Shown: positions 12,242 to 18,015 of the stretch, piece after piece
How positions within the stretch are numbered: position 1 is the stretch's first letter
How the letters are laid out: every line of letters starts with the position of its first letter
NCBI GenBank assembly: GCA_030524925.1
Contig: JAUNFS010000006.1
Coordinates: 1 to 42,852, forward strand
Direction: 5' to 3'
Length of the DNA: 42,852 bases
Source of the DNA: a bacterium
GTDB lineage: Bacteria; Bacillota_I; Bacilli_A; RF39; UBA660
Program-made: the position numbers and the translations under genes
Notes under the pieces: generated by a model
Seen by the model: the letters and a program-made list of their open reading frames with translations, nothing else
Told to the model about the DNA's origin: nothing
Databases searched by the model: none

Positions 12242-14863
12242 ATGAAATATGTTTATTTGTTTTCTGAAGGAAACAAGGATATGAAGAATCTTTTAGGGGG
12301 TAAGGGTGCTAATTTAGCAGAGATGACTAAGTTAGGGTTACCGGTTCCACAAGGTTTTACTATAACAACTGAAGCTTGTACTAAGTATTATGACGATGGC
12401 CAAAAGATTAGTGATGATATTCAAAAAGAGATTTTTGAGAATATTGCTAAAATGGAAGAGATTACCGGTAAGAAGTTTGGTGATTTAGAAAATCCACTAT
12501 TAGTTTCTGTTAGAAGTGGTGCTAGGGCATCTATGCCAGGAATGATGGATACAATACTTAATCTTGGTTTAAATGAAGATGTAGTTGATGTTCTTGCTAA
12601 GAAGAGTAATAATCCAAGATGGGCTTGGGATTGTTATCGTAGATTTATTCAAATGTATTCTGATGTTGTAATGGAAGTTGGAAAGAAATATTTTGAAACT
12701 CTTATTGATAAAATGAAAGAGAAAAAGGGTATTACTTTAGATACTGAACTTACTGCTGATGATTTAAAAGAACTTACAGTAGAGTTTAAAAATGAATATA
12801 AAAATAAAGTAGGTAGTGATTTTCCTACTGATCCTAAAGAACAATTAATGGGAGCAATTAAGGCTGTATTTAGATCTTGGGATAATCCTAGAGCTAATGT
12901 TTATCGTAGAGATAATGATATTCCTTATTCTTGGGGAACAGCTGTAAATGTTCAAATGATGGCTTTTGGTAATATGGGAGAAACTTCTGGTACTGGGGTA
13001 GCATTTACTAGAGATCCAGCAACGGGTGAAAAACATTTAATGGGTGAATTTTTAATGAATGCTCAAGGAGAAGATGTTGTAGCTGGGGTTAGAACTCCGC
13101 AACCGATTGATCATTTAAAAGAGGTTATGCCTGAGGTTTATGAAGAGTTTACAAAGATTTGTAAGACTTTAGAAGAGCATTATCATGATATGCAAGATAT
13201 GGAATTTACTATTGAGGATAAACATTTATATATGCTTCAAACTCGTAATGGTAAAAGAACTGCTAAGGCTGCTTTAAAAATTGCCTGTGATTTAGTTGAT
13301 GAAGGAATGATTACTGATAAAGAAGCAGTAATGATGATTGATCCTCGTAATTTAGATACACTTTTACATCCTGCGTTTGATGCTAGTTTATTAAAGGATG
13401 CTAAGTTAGTTGGTAAAGGACTTGCGGCTTCACCTGGTGCTGCTGCTGGACAAATTGTATTTACTGCTGATGATGCTAAACGTGCAAAAGAGAGTGGTAA
13501 AAAGGTTGTTCTTGTTAGATTAGAAACTTCTCCTGAAGACATTGAAGGAATGAAAGCTAGTGAAGGAATACTAACTGTTCGTGGTGGTATGACTAGTCAT
13601 GCTGCTGTTGTAGCGCGCGGAATGGGAACTTGTTGTGTTTCTGGGTGTCAAGAAATTGTTATGGATGAAGAAAATAAAGTATTTACTTTAGGTGGAGTAA
13701 CTTTTAAAGAATTTGATGAGATTTCTATTGATGGAAGCACTGGTAATATTTATGCAGGATTAATACCTAAAGTTGATGCAACTATAACAGGTGAATTTGA
13801 AAGAATTATGGCTTGGGCTGATAAATATAGAAAGTTAAAGGTAAGAACTAACGCTGATACTCCTAGAGATGCTAAGAAAGCTAGAGAACTTGGTGCTGAG
13901 GGTATTGGATTATGTCGTACTGAGCATATGTTCTTTGATAAAGAAAGAATTGCGGCTATTAGAGAGATGATTTGTTCTGATACTGTTGATGAAAGAGAAA
14001 ACGCACTTGCTAAGTTAGAGCCAATGCAACAAAAAGATTTTGAAGCACTTTATGAAGCTATGGAAGATTATAGTGTTACGATTAGATATTTAGATCCTCC
14101 TCTTCATGAGTTTGTTCCTACTGAGGAAGCGGATATTGAACTTCTTGCTAAGACTCAAGGAAAGAGTGTTCAAGAGATTAAAGCAATTATTGCTTCATTA
14201 CATGAATTTAACCCAATGATGGGACACCGTGGATGCAGACTTGCAGTTACATTCCCTGAGATTGCTAAAATGCAAACTAGAGCAGTAATTAAAGCGGCTA
14301 TTGAGGTTTCTAGAAGAAAGAATATTAAGATAGAACCAGAGATTATGATTCCATTAGTTGGTGAAGCTAAAGAGCTTAAGTATGTTAAAGATATTGTTTG
14401 TAGTGTTGCTGATGAAATTCTTAAGAAAGAAAACTTTGAAATGAAGTATCATGTTGGTACCATGATTGAAATTCCTAGAGCGGCACTTACTGCTGATGAG
14501 ATTGCTAAGGAAGCTGACTTCTTCTCATTTGGTACAAACGATTTAACACAAATGACATTTGGCTTTTCAAGAGATGATGCTGGTAAGTTCTTATCTTCAT
14601 ACTATGATAAAAAAATTTATGAAAATGATCCTTTTGCAAAACTTGATCAAAAGGGTGTAGGCAAACTTGTTAAAATGGCAGTTAGTTTAGGAAGAGAAGC
14701 AAATCCTAATATTCATTTAGGTATTTGTGGTGAACATGGTGGAGATCCTTCTTCAGTTGAGTTCTGCCATAATGTAGGACTTGATTATGTTTCTTGCTCG
14801 CCGTATAGGGTTCCAATTGCAAGGCTCTCTGCTGCGCAAGCTGCAATTAAATCAGAAGAATAG
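12242..14863 (+). CDS. ppdK: Pyruvate, phosphate dikinase
   Basis: LLGGKGANLAEM, SVRSGARASMPGMMDT, GGMTSHAAVVAR, GICGEHGG. Confidence 0.98.
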   Translation: MKYVYLFSEGNKDMKNLLGGKGANLAEMTKLGLPVPQGFTITTEACTKYYDDGQKISDDIQKEIFENIAKMEEITGKKFGDLENPLLVSVRSGARASMPGMMDTILNLGLNEDVVDVLAKKSNNPRWAWDCYRRFIQMYSDVVMEVGKKYFETLIDKMKEKKGITLDTELTADDLKELTVEFKNEYKNKVGSDFPTDPKEQLMGAIKAVFRSWDNPRANVYRRDNDIPYSWGTAVNVQMMAFGNMGETSGTGVAFTRDPATGEKHLMGEFLMNAQGEDVVAGVRTPQPIDHLKEVMPEVYEEFTKICKTLEEHYHDMQDMEFTIEDKHLYMLQTRNGKRTAKAALKIACDLVDEGMITDKEAVMMIDPRNLDTLLHPAFDASLLKDAKLVGKGLAASPGAAAGQIVFTADDAKRAKESGKKVVLVRLETSPEDIEGMKASEGILTVRGGMTSHAAVVARGMGTCCVSGCQEIVMDEENKVFTLGGVTFKEFDEISIDGSTGNIYAGLIPKVDATITGEFERIMAWADKYRKLKVRTNADTPRDAKKARELGAEGIGLCRTEHMFFDKERIAAIREMICSDTVDERENALAKLEPMQQKDFEALYEAMEDYSVTIRYLDPPLHEFVPTEEADIELLAKTQGKSVQEIKAIIASLHEFNPMMGHRGCRLAVTFPEIAKMQTRAVIKAAIEVSRRKNIKIEPEIMIPLVGEAKELKYVKDIVCSVADEILKKENFEMKYHVGTMIEIPRAALTADEIAKEADFFSFGTNDLTQMTFGFSRDDAGKFLSSYYDKKIYENDPFAKLDQKGVGKLVKMAVSLGREANPNIHLGICGEHGGDPSSVEFCHNVGLDYVSCSPYRVPIARLSAAQAAIKSEE

Positions 14864-15088: not shown

Positions 15089-15763
15089 ATGAAAAAAATA
15101 GATAGTGAAATACCAAAAAAAGGGGAATTAAATAATTTAAAAGATGAAAAGATTGCCCAAAGAAAAGATGAACAAAAAAATTCAAGTATATTGTCAAAAA
15201 TTATTGCGATGTCTGCTATAATTTTAGTAGCAGGAGTAGTGATTCTATTAGTAAATGGTAGTAAAGATGGAAATATAAAAAGTAATGCCAAAATTTCTTT
15301 GGATAAAATTGTTGAAAAAAGTGATTTAGAGACTGCAAATATTACATATAATGTAATTGCAAAGAAATGCAAGAATGAAGAGGAATGTGATTTAAAATCA
15401 AATAATATAGCTGATTTTAAATATGTGGTATCATGTAAAGGAACAATTACTGCGGGAATTGATTTTAGTAAAATTAAGATAGAACAAATTGATAAAGAAA
15501 AAAAGTTAATTATTACTATGCCTGAAGCAACATTAAAAGGTGAACCTACAATTGGTTCAACAAAATTTCTAAATGGAACAGATATATCCGCAAATGAGTT
15601 ACCTGAAGCTAGAAAATTATGCCAAGAAACAGTTAAAGAAAAAAGTGAAAAAGATAATAAATTGTTGCCAGCTGCGAAAGAACAAGCGAGAGTTGTTTTA
15701 GAAGAATTTTATACTCAATGGATTAAAGCGTACGATTCTGATTATAAGGTAGAGGTTAGGTAA
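15089..15763 (+). CDS. DUF4230-like membrane-anchored protein
   Basis: N-terminal TM, GTITAGIDFSKI...ITMPEA, AKEQAR pattern. AAGGAG RBS. Confidence 0.7.
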   Translation: MKKIDSEIPKKGELNNLKDEKIAQRKDEQKNSSILSKIIAMSAIILVAGVVILLVNGSKDGNIKSNAKISLDKIVEKSDLETANITYNVIAKKCKNEEECDLKSNNIADFKYVVSCKGTITAGIDFSKIKIEQIDKEKKLIITMPEATLKGEPTIGSTKFLNGTDISANELPEARKLCQETVKEKSEKDNKLLPAAKEQARVVLEEFYTQWIKAYDSDYKVEVR

Positions 15764-15779: not shown

Positions 15780-16376
15780 ATGAAAAAAATAGTGTTTAAT
15801 GTTGGAATAATTTTAGCAATATTTGTACTTACTGGTTGTAGTAAAAATGGAGATTACGAATCATTATCAGAAAATGTTAAAAGATTAGAACTAACAGGGA
15901 ATTTAGTTACATATGAAGCCTATTATCATAATGTGCTTGAGTTTGAAAAAGAAGCAGGTAAAGGAATAACGCACGTTTTTGAAAAAGATAGAAAATTATT
16001 TGCAGAATATACTGGAACAATAAAGTTAGGAATTGATTTAAATAAAGTAAAAATTGAAATTAATGGTAAAGAAATAAATGTAAAAATACCTGCAGCAAAA
16101 ATAATTGGACAACCTAATGTGGATAAAGATGATTTTAAAAAAGAAAAATTTATTGAGTCTGAAGAAGGTTTTATTAATAAAAATCGAATAAATGGCGATG
16201 ATATATCAAAAGCTTTTGATGATGCTCAAGCTGCAATGAAAAAATATGCTGAAGATGATGAAGAGTTGCTTGCGATTGCGCAAAAGAGAGCTAAAATTAT
16301 TATTGAAGAAAACATAAATCAATTTAGTGGTATGAAACCCTCTGATTATACTATTAATTGGGAATATGAATCATAA
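15780..16376 (+). CDS. DUF4230-like lipoprotein
   Basis: Lipobox LTGC, YTGTIKLGIDL...VKIPAAKI, AQKRAK. Confidence 0.75.
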   Translation: MKKIVFNVGIILAIFVLTGCSKNGDYESLSENVKRLELTGNLVTYEAYYHNVLEFEKEAGKGITHVFEKDRKLFAEYTGTIKLGIDLNKVKIEINGKEINVKIPAAKIIGQPNVDKDDFKKEKFIESEEGFINKNRINGDDISKAFDDAQAAMKKYAEDDEELLAIAQKRAKIIIEENINQFSGMKPSDYTINWEYES

Positions 16377-16482
16377 CGTTGAAGTTTTCTTTTGCTTTTT
16401 GATAGATTTTGATATATATGAAAAGATTATCAGAATAGTATAGTATAAATTATAATTGAATATACTAATAATGGTATACTAA

Positions 16483-16511
16483 TTGACATTTTTATAAAAA
16501 TATAGTATATT
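16483..16511 (+). promoter_or_regulatory. SigA promoter upstream of the repeat RNA
   Basis: TTGACA-17 bp-TATATT. Confidence 0.75.
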
Positions 16512-16534
16512 TATTTTGCACTGAAAAGTGTGAA

Positions 16535-16632
16535 AATGTTTTTCGCTTCTGGATGGTGCGAATAATAAATGATTCCAGGCGACAATGTTTTTCGCTTCCA
16601 GGTGGCGCGACTAATAAATGATCCTGGTTGAA
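16535..16632 (+). ncRNA. Two tandem 49-nt pseudoknot repeats; putative type III TA antitoxin RNA (CptI-like)
   Basis: Copies at 16535-16583 and 16584-16632. TCGC/GCGA stem interleaved with CTGGA/TCCAG (copy 1) or CCAGG/CCTGG (copy 2), with an A-rich TAATAAATG loop. Confidence 0.8.
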
Positions 16633-16642
16633 AATATAAAAT

Positions 16643-16680
16643 AACTTCATCAAACGGTGGAGTTTTCTTTTCTTTTATTT
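16643..16680 (+). terminator. Intrinsic terminator after the repeats
   Basis: AACTTCATC-AAAC-GGTGGAGTT followed by a long T-rich tract. Confidence 0.75.
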
Positions 16681-16707
16681 TATGCATAGATTATGCATTG
16701 AGATGAT

Positions 16708-16829
16708 ATGATACACATTGAAATTTATATTATATTAAAGATGAATATTTTGATGTCGTAGACGATGATAGTTTAAAAAAGAAAATGTTAGATGAAATAA
16801 AAGTAAGTTATTTAGTTCTTATTTGCTAA
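16708..16829 (+). pseudogene. Frameshifted, truncated type III toxin (CptN/ToxN-like) N-terminal fragment
   Basis: ATG at 16708 is out of frame with NLYYIKDEYFDVVDDDSLK, which resembles the YxIKDEYF N-terminus of type III toxins. Position is right after the repeat terminator. Stop at 16827-16829. Confidence 0.6.
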
Positions 16830-16849
16830 ACTTTAAAAAGAGCAGTTTA

Positions 16850-18015
16850 TTAATTGCTCTTTTTGAATATTTCAAATTTTTTAGTTTGAATAAGTGAATA
16901 GATATATTTATATGTGCCTGAAACTAATTGACCGATATATGTGCAAAAACCTGTTGGTAAAAATGAACATAATAATCTTAAAATTCTACAAGTTATATAT
17001 GATATGTTGTGTTTTTGATTGTTATCTTTTATTTGTAAATAATTCCATTTGATTATAGCCGGTACATTTAAAACCATGTCTATAATTTGGATTATAAATA
17101 TTATAATATAAATCTTTAAATCTGGTTTATAGAACCAATATAAACTGATATTCATCATTATAATAGATATCAAAAGAAGACCTAATAATTTGTATGCGTC
17201 TTTTAAAGATTTTTTGTAATTAAAATTATCTTTAGAAATATCAATTTTGGATACAGTACTAATGCTGGATAACATATCCCATTGGGTGTCAGATGTTAAA
17301 CTATCAAAATTTATAGCTGTTAAATATTTTGTTCCATAAGATACACTGTTTTGAATGCCAGTTAAATAAATAAGTAACATTCCAAAATTACCAATAATAT
17401 TGAAAGAAACATTTTTTATATTCTTCTTAAACATTAAATTTGGCTTAACAAGCTTAACATTTTTACAATAATAATAGGCGATTAGAATGGCGTCTATTAG
17501 GATAGTTAATATAACTGATAAACAGTTTTTAATTATTAATGATAGTATTACAATACAACTTAGATTTGTTATATTAAAACATGTATTCATTTTGTTTGAT
17601 AAAGTGTTTTTATTTTCATAATAAAGTTTTTGCGATATAAGTTGCATTAAGAATCCGAAAAACATAAGAAATACTGAGTATATAGCGTAATAGTGATAGA
17701 CGCTTGTTTCTAAATTAAAAAATAATAAATATTTATCAATGTTTATAGTTAATATAATAGTAATTAAAAGTACAAGGACAGTTCCAAAAAGCATATTGGA
17801 ATATACAATGTTTTTAATATTATTTTTACTATCAGTTATGTTTGGACCTACAGAAAATATCTCCGTAAAGATCATATAAAAAATTGTAAGGGGTAAGTTA
17901 TTATTAGGACGTTAGATATTTCTTTATTAATTATTAAACCTAAAGCTATCCATATTATAATGGGACATATAGATGTTAGGAAAATGTCTAAACTTATTTG
18001 TAAGAGTCTTTTCAT
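16850..18015 (-). pseudogene. Polytopic membrane protein (MATE/flippase-like) split by a 1-nt frameshift
   Basis: ORF from ATG 18015 (MKRLLQ...YPLQFF) and ORF 17875..16850 join in frame if the T6 run at 17878-17883 gains one base. Many TM segments. Confidence 0.65.

What the first reader, a model, noticed from the sequence alone, without database searches (positions are those of the whole stretch)
16483..16680. Tandem pseudoknot RNA with compensatory base changes: type III toxin-antitoxin antitoxin array
Seen: promoter, two 49-nt repeats, then a terminator. In each copy TCGC pairs with GCGA, while an interleaved stem changes from CTGGA/TCCAG to CCAGG/CCTGG, preserving pairing (H-type pseudoknot). 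An A-rich loop is conserved. Junctions read GAAAAT, GACAAT, GAAAAT. Known: this layout, with about two repeats of 45-50 nt, is typical of CptIN-type type III TA antitoxins, which the toxin cuts at A-rich junctions. Inference: an expressed structured RNA missed by ORF-based annotation.
Basis: partly seen in the sequence, partly recalled or inferred. Interest (0 to 1): 0.8.

Follow-up and report, generated by a model that had tools for sequence, protein, structure and literature searches.

The report
Orphan CptI antitoxin RNA array
This is a two-unit pseudoknot RNA of the known CptIN toxin-antitoxin family, left with its own promoter and terminator after the toxin gene next to it was destroyed by deletions, so it is a correctly recognised but fairly ordinary relic.

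Summary
Two 49-nt direct repeats lie at 16532-16580 and 16581-16629 and are 78% identical. They sit between a near-consensus promoter and an intrinsic terminator.

The interleaved stems are real. Across 87 distinct homologous units, 96.9% of cells pair, against 17-51% in slid controls, and 121 cells carry compensatory changes.

The CptIN assignment is also right. In relatives the same array lies about 78 nt upstream of a 155-167 aa gene. That gene scores 152-159 bits on NCBIfam NF047359 (CptIN toxin, cut-off 90) and matches PDB 4RMO CptN. In a set chosen by the toxin alone, 71 of 71 loci with enough upstream DNA carry the array.

Its start codon is lost, there is an 8-nt gap near the start, and a 366-nt deletion lies between 10-nt microhomologies. 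No other cptN was found in the 85%-complete genome.

Toxin-less arrays are common in this genus: 19 of 38 arrays. They pair somewhat less well than toxin-linked ones, which favours decay over retained function. Transcription is not shown.

This is a new member of a known kind, of modest interest.

The parts
16483..16511 (+). Sigma-70-type promoter: -35 TTGACA (16483-16488), 17-nt spacer, -10 TATATT (16506-16511).
   Evidence: 11 of 12 matches. The same TTGAC(A/T) ... TAGTATA(T/C)T layout stands upstream of the arrays in relatives.
16518..16531 (+). Leader hairpin GCACU-GAAA-AGUGU at the predicted 5' end of the transcript. It is probably a 5' stabiliser (inferred).
   Evidence: Predicted in the MFE fold. 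In 45 close relatives 90.6% of cells pair against 17-65% slid, but only 4 cells change on both sides. More distant loci carry different stems at this place, by eye.
16532..16580 (+). CptI unit 1 (49 nt). S1 is 16543-16546 with 16558-16561. S2 is 16549-16553 with 16574-16578. The A-rich loop is 16562-16573.
   Evidence: 9 of 9 core pairs intact.
16581..16629 (+). CptI unit 2 (49 nt). S1 is 16592-16595 with 16607-16610. S2 is 16598-16602 with 16623-16627. S2 differs from unit 1 at three pairs, all compensated.
   Evidence: 9 of 9 core pairs intact.
16630..16680 (+). Third A-rich junction (GAAAAT), then an intrinsic terminator: stem-loop 16643-16664 followed by a T run.
   Evidence: (1 found, 0.1 expected). 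It is homologous to the terminator between array and toxin gene in relatives.
16723..16802 (+). Remnant of the cptN toxin gene. 16723-16776 matches N-terminal codons (about 7-24) and 16767-16799 matches the C-terminal codons. The two matches overlap in a 10-nt microhomology (16767-16776) that marks a 366-nt deletion. Upstream, ATG has become ATT and there is an 8-nt gap.
   Evidence: two HSPs to L003: 1743-1796 at 91% and 2153-2185 at 94%; alignment; translation; the only CptN-like match in the genome, E 0.14.

Best explanation
The 16483-16680 stretch is a CptI-type antitoxin gene of a type III (protein toxin / RNA antitoxin) toxin-antitoxin module of the CptIN family.

Its own promoter should give a precursor of roughly 150-160 nt: a 5' hairpin, two 49-nt units and a terminator. 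Each unit folds into an H-type pseudoknot with a 4-bp S1, a 5-bp S2 and a conserved A-rich loop.

In relatives that keep the downstream cptN gene, the CptN endoribonuclease is expected to cut the precursor at the A-rich junctions and to be held inactive by the resulting monomers. This is how the solved E. rectale CptIN 2:2 complex works.

In this genome the toxin gene has been destroyed by loss of the start codon, an 8-nt gap and a 366-nt microhomology-mediated deletion. No other cptN is found. The array is therefore an orphan. It is most likely still transcribed but has no target, and is a recent relic on its way to decay.

Shown here: the repeats, the pseudoknot covariation, the linkage to CptN in relatives, and the deletion. 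Inferred: transcription here, the cleavage position, RNA-toxin binding, and the lack of a present function.
For: Structure: 96.9% of cells paired, 121 compensatory cells, 0 of 500 shuffles reach the score.

Linkage to the toxin:
- 71 of 71 toxin-defined loci with at least 300 nt upstream carry the array in the same orientation. 68 of them have two units, and the median gap to the gene is 78 nt.
- 16 of 17 loci in a second toxin-defined set carry it.

Toxin family: NF047359 at 151.9 and 159.2 bits against a cut-off of 90. PDB 4RMO CptN at E 1e-19.

Architecture: promoter, repeats, terminator and toxin gene are laid out as described for type III loci (PMC5086642 and PMC3401426, passages seen).

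Likeness to E. rectale CptI: that RNA is a 45-nt H-type pseudoknot with an A-rich L2 (PMC4627078 passages). Read by eye from the primer printed there, its L2 and 3' tail share the short motifs AUAAAUG and UUGA with these units.

Toxin loss here:
- Two HSPs map a 366-nt deletion between 10-nt microhomologies.
- ATG has become ATT and there is an 8-nt gap.
- The only CptN-like match in the genome is this remnant, at E 0.14.
- The family HMM finds nothing in G000.
- nhmmer and tblastn on the laid genome find no second array or toxin.

Decay reading:
- 19 of 38 arrays in 27 related loci lack a toxin, and 3 more sit next to broken toxin genes.
- Only 16 of 31 toxin-less units keep all 9 pairs, against 24 of 28 toxin-linked units and 184 of 201 in the toxin-defined sets.
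- Other genomes show different deletion end points or a nonsense codon, so the losses are independent.
Against: Transcription is not demonstrated. All four RNA-library runs laid are contigs from relatives (90-99% alike). Three of them also cover the promoter region from 16461 or 16474, so DNA carry-over or read-through cannot be excluded.

The genome is only 85% complete, so a cptN copy in the missing part is possible.

Both units here still have 9 of 9 pairs, and the promoter and terminator are intact. That is equally compatible with recent loss and with retained function.

The array is the best-conserved part of the locus across non-syntenic loci: 91-99% identity against 74-91% for the terminator and toxin remnant. 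G004 (93% complete) keeps a fully paired array with no CptN anywhere. Both facts could reflect selection on orphans.

Related genomes are not independent, so the 16 of 31 versus 24 of 28 contrast is only suggestive.

The cleavage site is inferred by analogy, not observed.
Confidence: 0.85

Rival explanations
1. Retained orphan antitoxin. After toxin loss the array is kept by selection because its RNA neutralises CptN brought in by incoming mobile elements or phages, giving anti-addiction or immunity to cptIN modules. Alternatively it has been co-opted for some other role.
For: The array is 95-98% identical to arrays that sit next to apparently intact toxins in other genomes (L005, L009). The RNA should therefore still fit those CptN variants (inferred).

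The modules lie in non-homologous flanks in different genomes, which suggests mobility.

The promoter, terminator and all 18 core pairs are intact here.

G004 (93% complete) keeps a fully paired array with no CptN hit.

Phage-borne ToxI mimics that neutralise ToxN are known for the sister family (PMC5086642 passage).
Against: Toxin-less units are less often fully paired: 16 of 31 against 24 of 28. Several are single, truncated or chimeric units (L006, L022, L028), as expected for neutral decay.

CptI antitoxins are reported as highly toxin-specific (PMC5086642 passage).

No expression or phenotype data exist.

Two literature searches and term searches in three of the papers they listed found no described orphan type III array with such a role.
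Confidence: 0.12
2. Working toxin-antitoxin pair in trans. An intact cptN lies in the roughly 15% of the genome that was not assembled, and this array supplies or supplements its antitoxin.
For: The genome is 85.3% complete in 38 contigs. Several genus relatives carry 2-3 CptN loci. Repeats often break assemblies. In G017 the contig ends right at the array.
Against: No CptN match was found in 905 kb by three methods. In the relatives examined each intact toxin has its own array directly upstream (71 of 71), so a toxin elsewhere would be expected to bring its own. G004, G007 and G017 (90-93% complete) also lack any CptN hit.
Confidence: 0.05
3. Not an antitoxin: a chance repeat, a riboswitch or other cis-regulatory leader, or a small protein gene on the minus strand (ORFs 16492-16653 and 16511-16687).
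For: Two minus-strand ORFs of 53 and 58 aa overlap the array. No Rfam family matches, so no curated RNA label exists.
Against: Compensatory changes keep RNA pairing in 7 of 9 pairs, which a coding constraint would not produce. Linkage to CptN is strict. The terminator lies between the array and the gene, as in type III loci. The array survives where no downstream gene is left to regulate.
Confidence: 0.01

Closest known systems
CptIN type III toxin-antitoxin system (Eubacterium rectale CptIN, PDB 4RMO; family named after Coprococcus catus)
   Same: Relatives' toxin is a full-length NF047359 member and matches 4RMO CptN.

The layout is the same: promoter, about two tandem repeats, terminator, toxin gene.

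The RNA is an H-type pseudoknot with two short stems and a long A-rich second loop. The junctions are A-rich. By eye, short motifs in loop 2 and the 3' tail are shared with the E. rectale repeat printed.
   Different: - The unit is 49 nt against 45 nt, and against the 40-48 nt range tabulated in 2012.
- There is a nearly invariant 4-nt UGGU linker between S2-5' and S1-3', and a 2-nt L1 against 1 nt in E. rectale.
- The two units are 78% identical here (median 80% in the clade), whereas passages in PMC12283969 call cptI repeats nearly identical.
- The host is an uncultured small-genome Bacilli gut lineage (record titles).
- The toxin gene is deleted in this window.
cptIN loci with full antitoxin arrays but shortened toxin genes (Blower et al. 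2012, PMC3401426)
   Same: That paper reports loci with complete repeats and terminators but toxin ORFs of only 45-101 aa in several organisms (passage seen). That is the same kind of state as here.
   Different: Here no start codon remains and only about 27 codons of toxin-derived sequence survive. The deletion end points and their microhomology are mapped. The frequency of such states is measured in one genus: 19 toxin-less and 3 broken among 38 arrays.
ToxIN (ToxI/ToxN, AbiQ) type III systems
   Same: Same logic: a repetitive RNA is cut by its own toxin into pseudoknot monomers that inhibit it. Same operon layout with an internal terminator (passages).
   Different: - ToxI units are about 36 nt, with triplex-stabilised pseudoknots and heterohexameric 3:3 complexes.
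- The toxin family is different. Pfam found no family for the relatives' toxin at E up to 1 apart from chance-level hits.
- No Rfam model matched the array.

Membership tests
CptIN type III TA, antitoxin CptI | Tandem direct repeats of about 40-50 nt, about 2-3 copies, directly upstream of the toxin gene | tested here: met
   Two 49-nt units. The 2012 table gives 40-48 nt and 1.9-3.4 copies, so the unit is 1 nt over that range. Relatives: 68 of 71 arrays have two units.
CptIN type III TA, antitoxin CptI | Cognate toxin belongs to the CptN protein family | tested here: met
   For relatives' genes downstream of homologous arrays: NF047359 at 152-159 bits against a cut-off of 90, and 4RMO at E 1e-19. 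In the window itself only a remnant remains.
CptIN type III TA, antitoxin CptI | Each unit folds as an H-type pseudoknot with an A-rich second loop | tested here: met
   Covariation on 87 distinct units: 96.9% paired, with 7 of 9 pairs showing double changes. Positions A34, A36 and A37 of the loop are invariant. The three-dimensional A-minor twist was not tested.
CptIN type III TA, antitoxin CptI | Own promoter upstream, and a Rho-independent terminator between repeats and toxin gene | tested here: met
   (promoter 11 of 12; terminator 1 found against 0.1 expected). The same elements are present in relatives.
CptIN type III TA, antitoxin CptI | The RNA is cut by the toxin into monomers, binds it and neutralises it | not testable with these tools
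   Needs co-expression and processing assays. It is inferred from E. rectale work (PMC4627078 passages).
Functional toxin-antitoxin module (any type) | An intact toxin gene is present with the antitoxin | tested here: not met
   Start codon lost, an 8-nt gap and a 366-nt deletion. No other CptN in the 85%-complete genome.
Any Rfam RNA family | Match to a curated covariance model | tested here: not met
   No plus-strand match over the units at E up to 10. Across the whole window at gathering scores, only a tRNA matches.

The most novel reading that the evidence does not exclude
Orphan CptI arrays are not mere debris. They are kept in these small gut Bacilli genomes as stand-alone RNA 'vaccines' that disarm incoming cptIN modules or CptN-dependent abortive infection by neighbours' elements.

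A related possibility concerns the systematically non-identical unit pair: unit 1 and unit 2 have different, individually compensated S2 helices in 90 of 119 arrays. This may encode two distinct pseudoknots that occupy the two RNA positions of the 2:2 CptIN complex, or that prevent misfolding between units.
Probability: 0.12. Interest if true: 0.6.

Novelty: new member of a known kind. Interest (0 to 1): 0.35.

Why it matters
The finding shows that a reader working from raw sequence can correctly recognise a type III antitoxin RNA that gene callers and Rfam miss.

The follow-up adds a clade-wide data set: 143 arrays, of which the covariation alignment holds 87 distinct units from 45 sources. 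It gives covariation support for a CptI pseudoknot outside the single solved example.

It also documents in what order such modules fall apart. The toxin goes first, by independent deletions and nonsense mutations, and the RNA gene lingers. Half of the arrays in one genus are toxin-less.

This matters for annotating toxin-antitoxin and defence loci in uncultured gut bacteria, and for building an RNA family model. It does not change what is known about how these systems work.

Tried and rejected
- Tandem Repeats Finder at score 30 did not list the 49-nt repeat. The repeat finder did.
- Rfam at E up to 10 gave only chance-level hits. The miRNA-like hits fall on the 16833-16868 hairpin, and a minus-strand BSnc120 hit has E 6.1.
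- Pfam found nothing for the 35-aa remnant at E up to 10. It gave no credible family for the relatives' toxin either.
- The NCBIfam scan of the remnant failed because one of my two references held stop codons. I did not repeat it.
- A first fuzzy 10-nt core search was too permissive in this AT-rich DNA. I replaced it with blastn and nhmmer.
- Two extra pairs, columns 11-33 and 17-51, were tested and dropped.
- RNAalifold predicted no consensus for the leader hairpin. The named-structure count gave only modest support.
- MAFFT misplaced the C-terminal remnant. Local HSPs resolved it.
- Sequencing runs: no run holds half of the words of 16300-17000 (best share 0.47). The flanks 16300-16460 and 16684-17000 had no cover in the four RNA runs laid. 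This says nothing, because those organisms are relatives with other flanks.
- The nearest relative, G017, could not settle whether the deletion is shared. Its contig ends at the array. The next contig starts with 57 unrelated bases before joining the window's sequence at 16827.
- The archetypal E. rectale locus could not be fetched as DNA. The one genome-contig scan returned only the 80 closest loci. The comparison with CptI of E. rectale is therefore by eye, from a primer printed in a paper.
- Supplementary tables of the cptIN papers were not seen. They may list more truncated-toxin loci.

Full report
**1. What is in the sequence**

- The repeat finder reports two head-to-tail 49-nt copies, 16532-16580 and 16581-16629, 78% identical.
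- The unit junctions read GAAAAT, GACAAT and GAAAAT.
- A promoter-like site TTGACA-17-TATATT (16483-16511) matches 11 of 12 positions.
- A terminator-like stem-loop at 16643-16664 is followed by a T run.

The terminator is unlikely by chance: 1 was found against 0.1 expected. Promoter-like sites as such are not rare in this 28% G+C DNA, with 6 found against 5.2 in shuffles. The promoter call therefore rests on match quality and on conservation in relatives.

In each unit TCGC pairs with GCGA. An interleaved 5-bp stem changes from CTGGA/TCCAG to CCAGG/CCTGG. A nested MFE fold cannot show this pseudoknot. It does predict a 5' hairpin and the terminator (-39.6 kcal/mol, z -2.0).

**2. Relatives, and what follows the array**

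The window lies in a 905-kb genome of 38 contigs, 85% complete, and the array is unique in it.

A DNA search of 60 related genomes found strong matches (E of 1e-9 or better) in 16 of 23 other genomes of the genus. It also found them in 4 of 13 other genera of the family that were sampled.

In 27 fetched loci I found 38 arrays:
- 18 are followed within about 70-100 nt by a homologue of one gene. Of these, 14 are open at 155-167 aa, 3 are broken and 1 is cut by a contig end.
- 19 have no such gene.
- 1 is at a contig end.

That gene is a CptN toxin. NCBIfam NF047359 'type III toxin-antitoxin system CptIN family toxin' scores 151.9 and 159.2 bits against a cut-off of 90, over the whole profile. 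PDB 4RMO 'CptN Toxin' matches at E 1e-19. Pfam has no family for it.

**3. The converse test, from toxin to array**

The family HMM finds CptN in 17 of 121 genomes (one per genus of the family), 14 of them above the cut-off. It finds none in 14 control genomes.

Of 19 such places fetched, 17 had upstream sequence. Of these, 15 show two or more units, one shows one unit and one shows none.

A scan of species-representative genomes with a toxin alignment gave 394 confirmed loci. The best 80 are nearly all titled as uncultured Bacilli MAGs from animal and human guts. Among those 80, all 71 with at least 300 nt upstream carry the array in the toxin's orientation. 68 of them have two units, and the median distance is 78 nt. 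Six of the nine loci with shorter flanks still show two units.

**4. The pseudoknot**

From the window and 44 loci I collected 106 units, 87 of them distinct, and aligned them.

For the nine core pairs, 96.9% of 781 cells are standard pairs. S1 is alignment columns 12-15 with 29-32, and S2 is columns 18-22 with 46-50. Sliding the partners by 1-3 columns gives 17-51%. Seven pairs and 121 cells change on both sides, and no shuffle of 500 reaches the covariation score.

All five S2 pairs covary. For example, pair 22-46 is GC in 50 units and AU in 34. S1 covaries at two pairs: 12-32 is UA in 72 and CG in 14, and 14-30 is GC in 84 and AU in 2.

Two additional pairs that I tried do not hold.

The loop between S1-3' and S2-3' is A-rich and carries invariant positions. 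A UGGU linker between S2-5' and S1-3' is nearly invariant.

The topology is the one described for E. rectale CptI: a 45-nt H-type pseudoknot with a very short L1 and a long A-rich L2 forming an A-minor twist (PMC4627078, passages; PMC5086642, passages). Reading the repeat from a primer printed by eye, loop 2 shares AUAAAUG and the 3' tail shares UUGA with the present units. I could not fetch that locus as DNA, so this comparison is not a computed alignment.

**5. The toxin gene in this window is dead**

Downstream of the terminator, frame 16722-16829 translates to an N-terminal CptN-like stretch joined directly to a C-terminal one.

Local alignments to the G032 locus (L003) give two pieces. 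Window 16723-16776 matches L003 1743-1796 at 91%, and window 16767-16799 matches L003 2153-2185 at 94%. They overlap in a 10-nt microhomology present at both places in L003, which means a 366-nt (122-codon) deletion.

Further upstream, the start codon reads ATT and the alignment shows an 8-nt gap.

The only CptN-like match in the genome is this remnant, at E 0.14. The HMM finds nothing, and neither does tblastn or nhmmer on the laid genome.

Other genomes lost the gene in other ways:
- a different deletion in G007 (L006);
- complete absence in G004 (L008);
- a TAA nonsense codon in G032 (L003);
- split frames in L016 and L019.

In the genus, 11 of 24 genomes have a CptN match, 10 of them over the cut-off. 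G004, G007 and G017 (90-93% complete) have an array but no CptN.

**6. Relic or retained?**

The array is the best-conserved segment between loci whose flanks are not even homologous. Identity to the window is 91-99% for the array, against 77-100% for promoter and leader, 79-91% for the terminator and 74-87% for the toxin remnant. This shows strong constraint on the RNA where a toxin is present, and suggests that the module moves.

Toxin-less units are less often fully paired. 16 of 31 have 9 of 9 pairs, against 24 of 28 for units next to open toxin genes and 184 of 201 in the toxin-defined sets. Some are single, truncated or chimeric.

Relatedness among genomes weakens this comparison, but its direction fits relaxed constraint after toxin loss. 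The window's two units are still 9 of 9, and the promoter and terminator are intact. That fits a recent loss. I therefore favour 'recent relic', and I keep a retained anti-addiction or immunity role as the main rival.

**7. Expression**

No run holds half of the sampled words of 16300-17000.

Contigs of all four RNA-library runs laid (four studies) cover the array at 90-99% likeness: 16474-16671, 16461-16671, 16474-16636 and 16531-16628. They are contigs from relatives. Three of them include the promoter region, so they do not prove transcription or give transcript ends.

**8. Comparison with what is known**

The cptIN family, its repeat-terminator-toxin layout and loci with full arrays but shortened toxins are all in print (PMC3401426, passages including Table 2).

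Two literature searches and term searches in three papers ('orphan', 'solitary', 'standalone' and similar terms, 0 occurrences) found no description of toxin-less type III arrays as a class. Supplements were not seen.

Features that differ from the published picture:
- The unit is 49 nt.
- The two units are systematically non-identical. 90 of 119 parsed two-unit arrays differ in the S2 5' strand, and 80 of those keep at least 4 of 5 pairs in both units. The median identity between units is 0.80. 49 arrays share exactly the window's CTGGA and CCAGG combination. Passages in PMC12283969 call cptI repeats nearly identical.
- Orphan arrays are frequent.

**9. Verdict**

The added result is that the toxin partner has been deleted. 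This is a new member of a known kind, and the interest is modest.

Noticed in passing
window 16518-16531: A 5' leader hairpin (GCACU-GAAA-AGUGU) begins about 7 nt after the -10 box. Relatives keep a hairpin here with different stem sequences. It is possibly a 5' stabiliser of the antitoxin precursor.
   Followed up: partly
L009, L011-L014, L018, L019, L021, L026, L028 (downstream of the toxin gene); 7 of 77 loci in L050-L129: A second, toxin-less CptI array or single unit often sits right after the toxin gene, giving an array-toxin-array arrangement. In L026 it is followed by a C-terminal toxin remnant, which suggests decayed tandem modules.
   Followed up: partly
all two-unit arrays (window, L003-L129): Unit 1 and unit 2 usually carry different, individually compensated S2 helices (90 of 119 parsed arrays). 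49 arrays share exactly the window's CTGGA and CCAGG combination. The reason is unknown: it could be avoiding misfolding between units, avoiding repeat deletion, or filling two distinct positions in the 2:2 complex.
   Followed up: partly
window 16635-16636 (run X14): A contig from a metatranscriptome (depth 48.8) stops at 16635/16636, just after the last A-rich junction, and continues into sequencing-adapter letters. This hints at a defined fragment end in a relative. It is unexplained.
   Followed up: no
window 16531-16628 (run X16): A 128-nt contig from an RNA library reads units 1 and 2 and then the start of unit 1 again. This is either a three-unit variant, as in L010, or a loop in the assembly graph.
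   Followed up: no
window 16454-16467 and 16503-16516: A 14-nt inverted repeat (86% complementary) brackets the -35 box and overlaps the -10 box. The TATACTA-like words upstream of -35 recur in relatives. It is possibly an operator. Not tested.
   Followed up: no
window 15089-15763 and 15780-16376: Two adjacent DUF4230 paralogues (E 5e-18 and 9e-23) lie between the pyruvate phosphate dikinase gene (12242-14863) and the array. In G032, G063 and G144 the array follows the dikinase gene directly.
   Followed up: partly
window 16833-16868: A perfect 15-bp hairpin with a 4-nt loop, flanked by A and T runs, lies between the toxin remnant and the convergent 341-aa membrane-protein gene (16850-17875, minus strand). 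It is likely a bidirectional terminator. It drew chance miRNA hits in Rfam.
   Followed up: no
G017 contigs C26 and C4 (L131, L130): In the closest relative the contig ends exactly at the end of the array. The next contig begins with 57 unrelated bases before matching the window from 16827 at 96.6% identity. What lies after the array there is unknown, and no CptN is found in that genome.
   Followed up: partly
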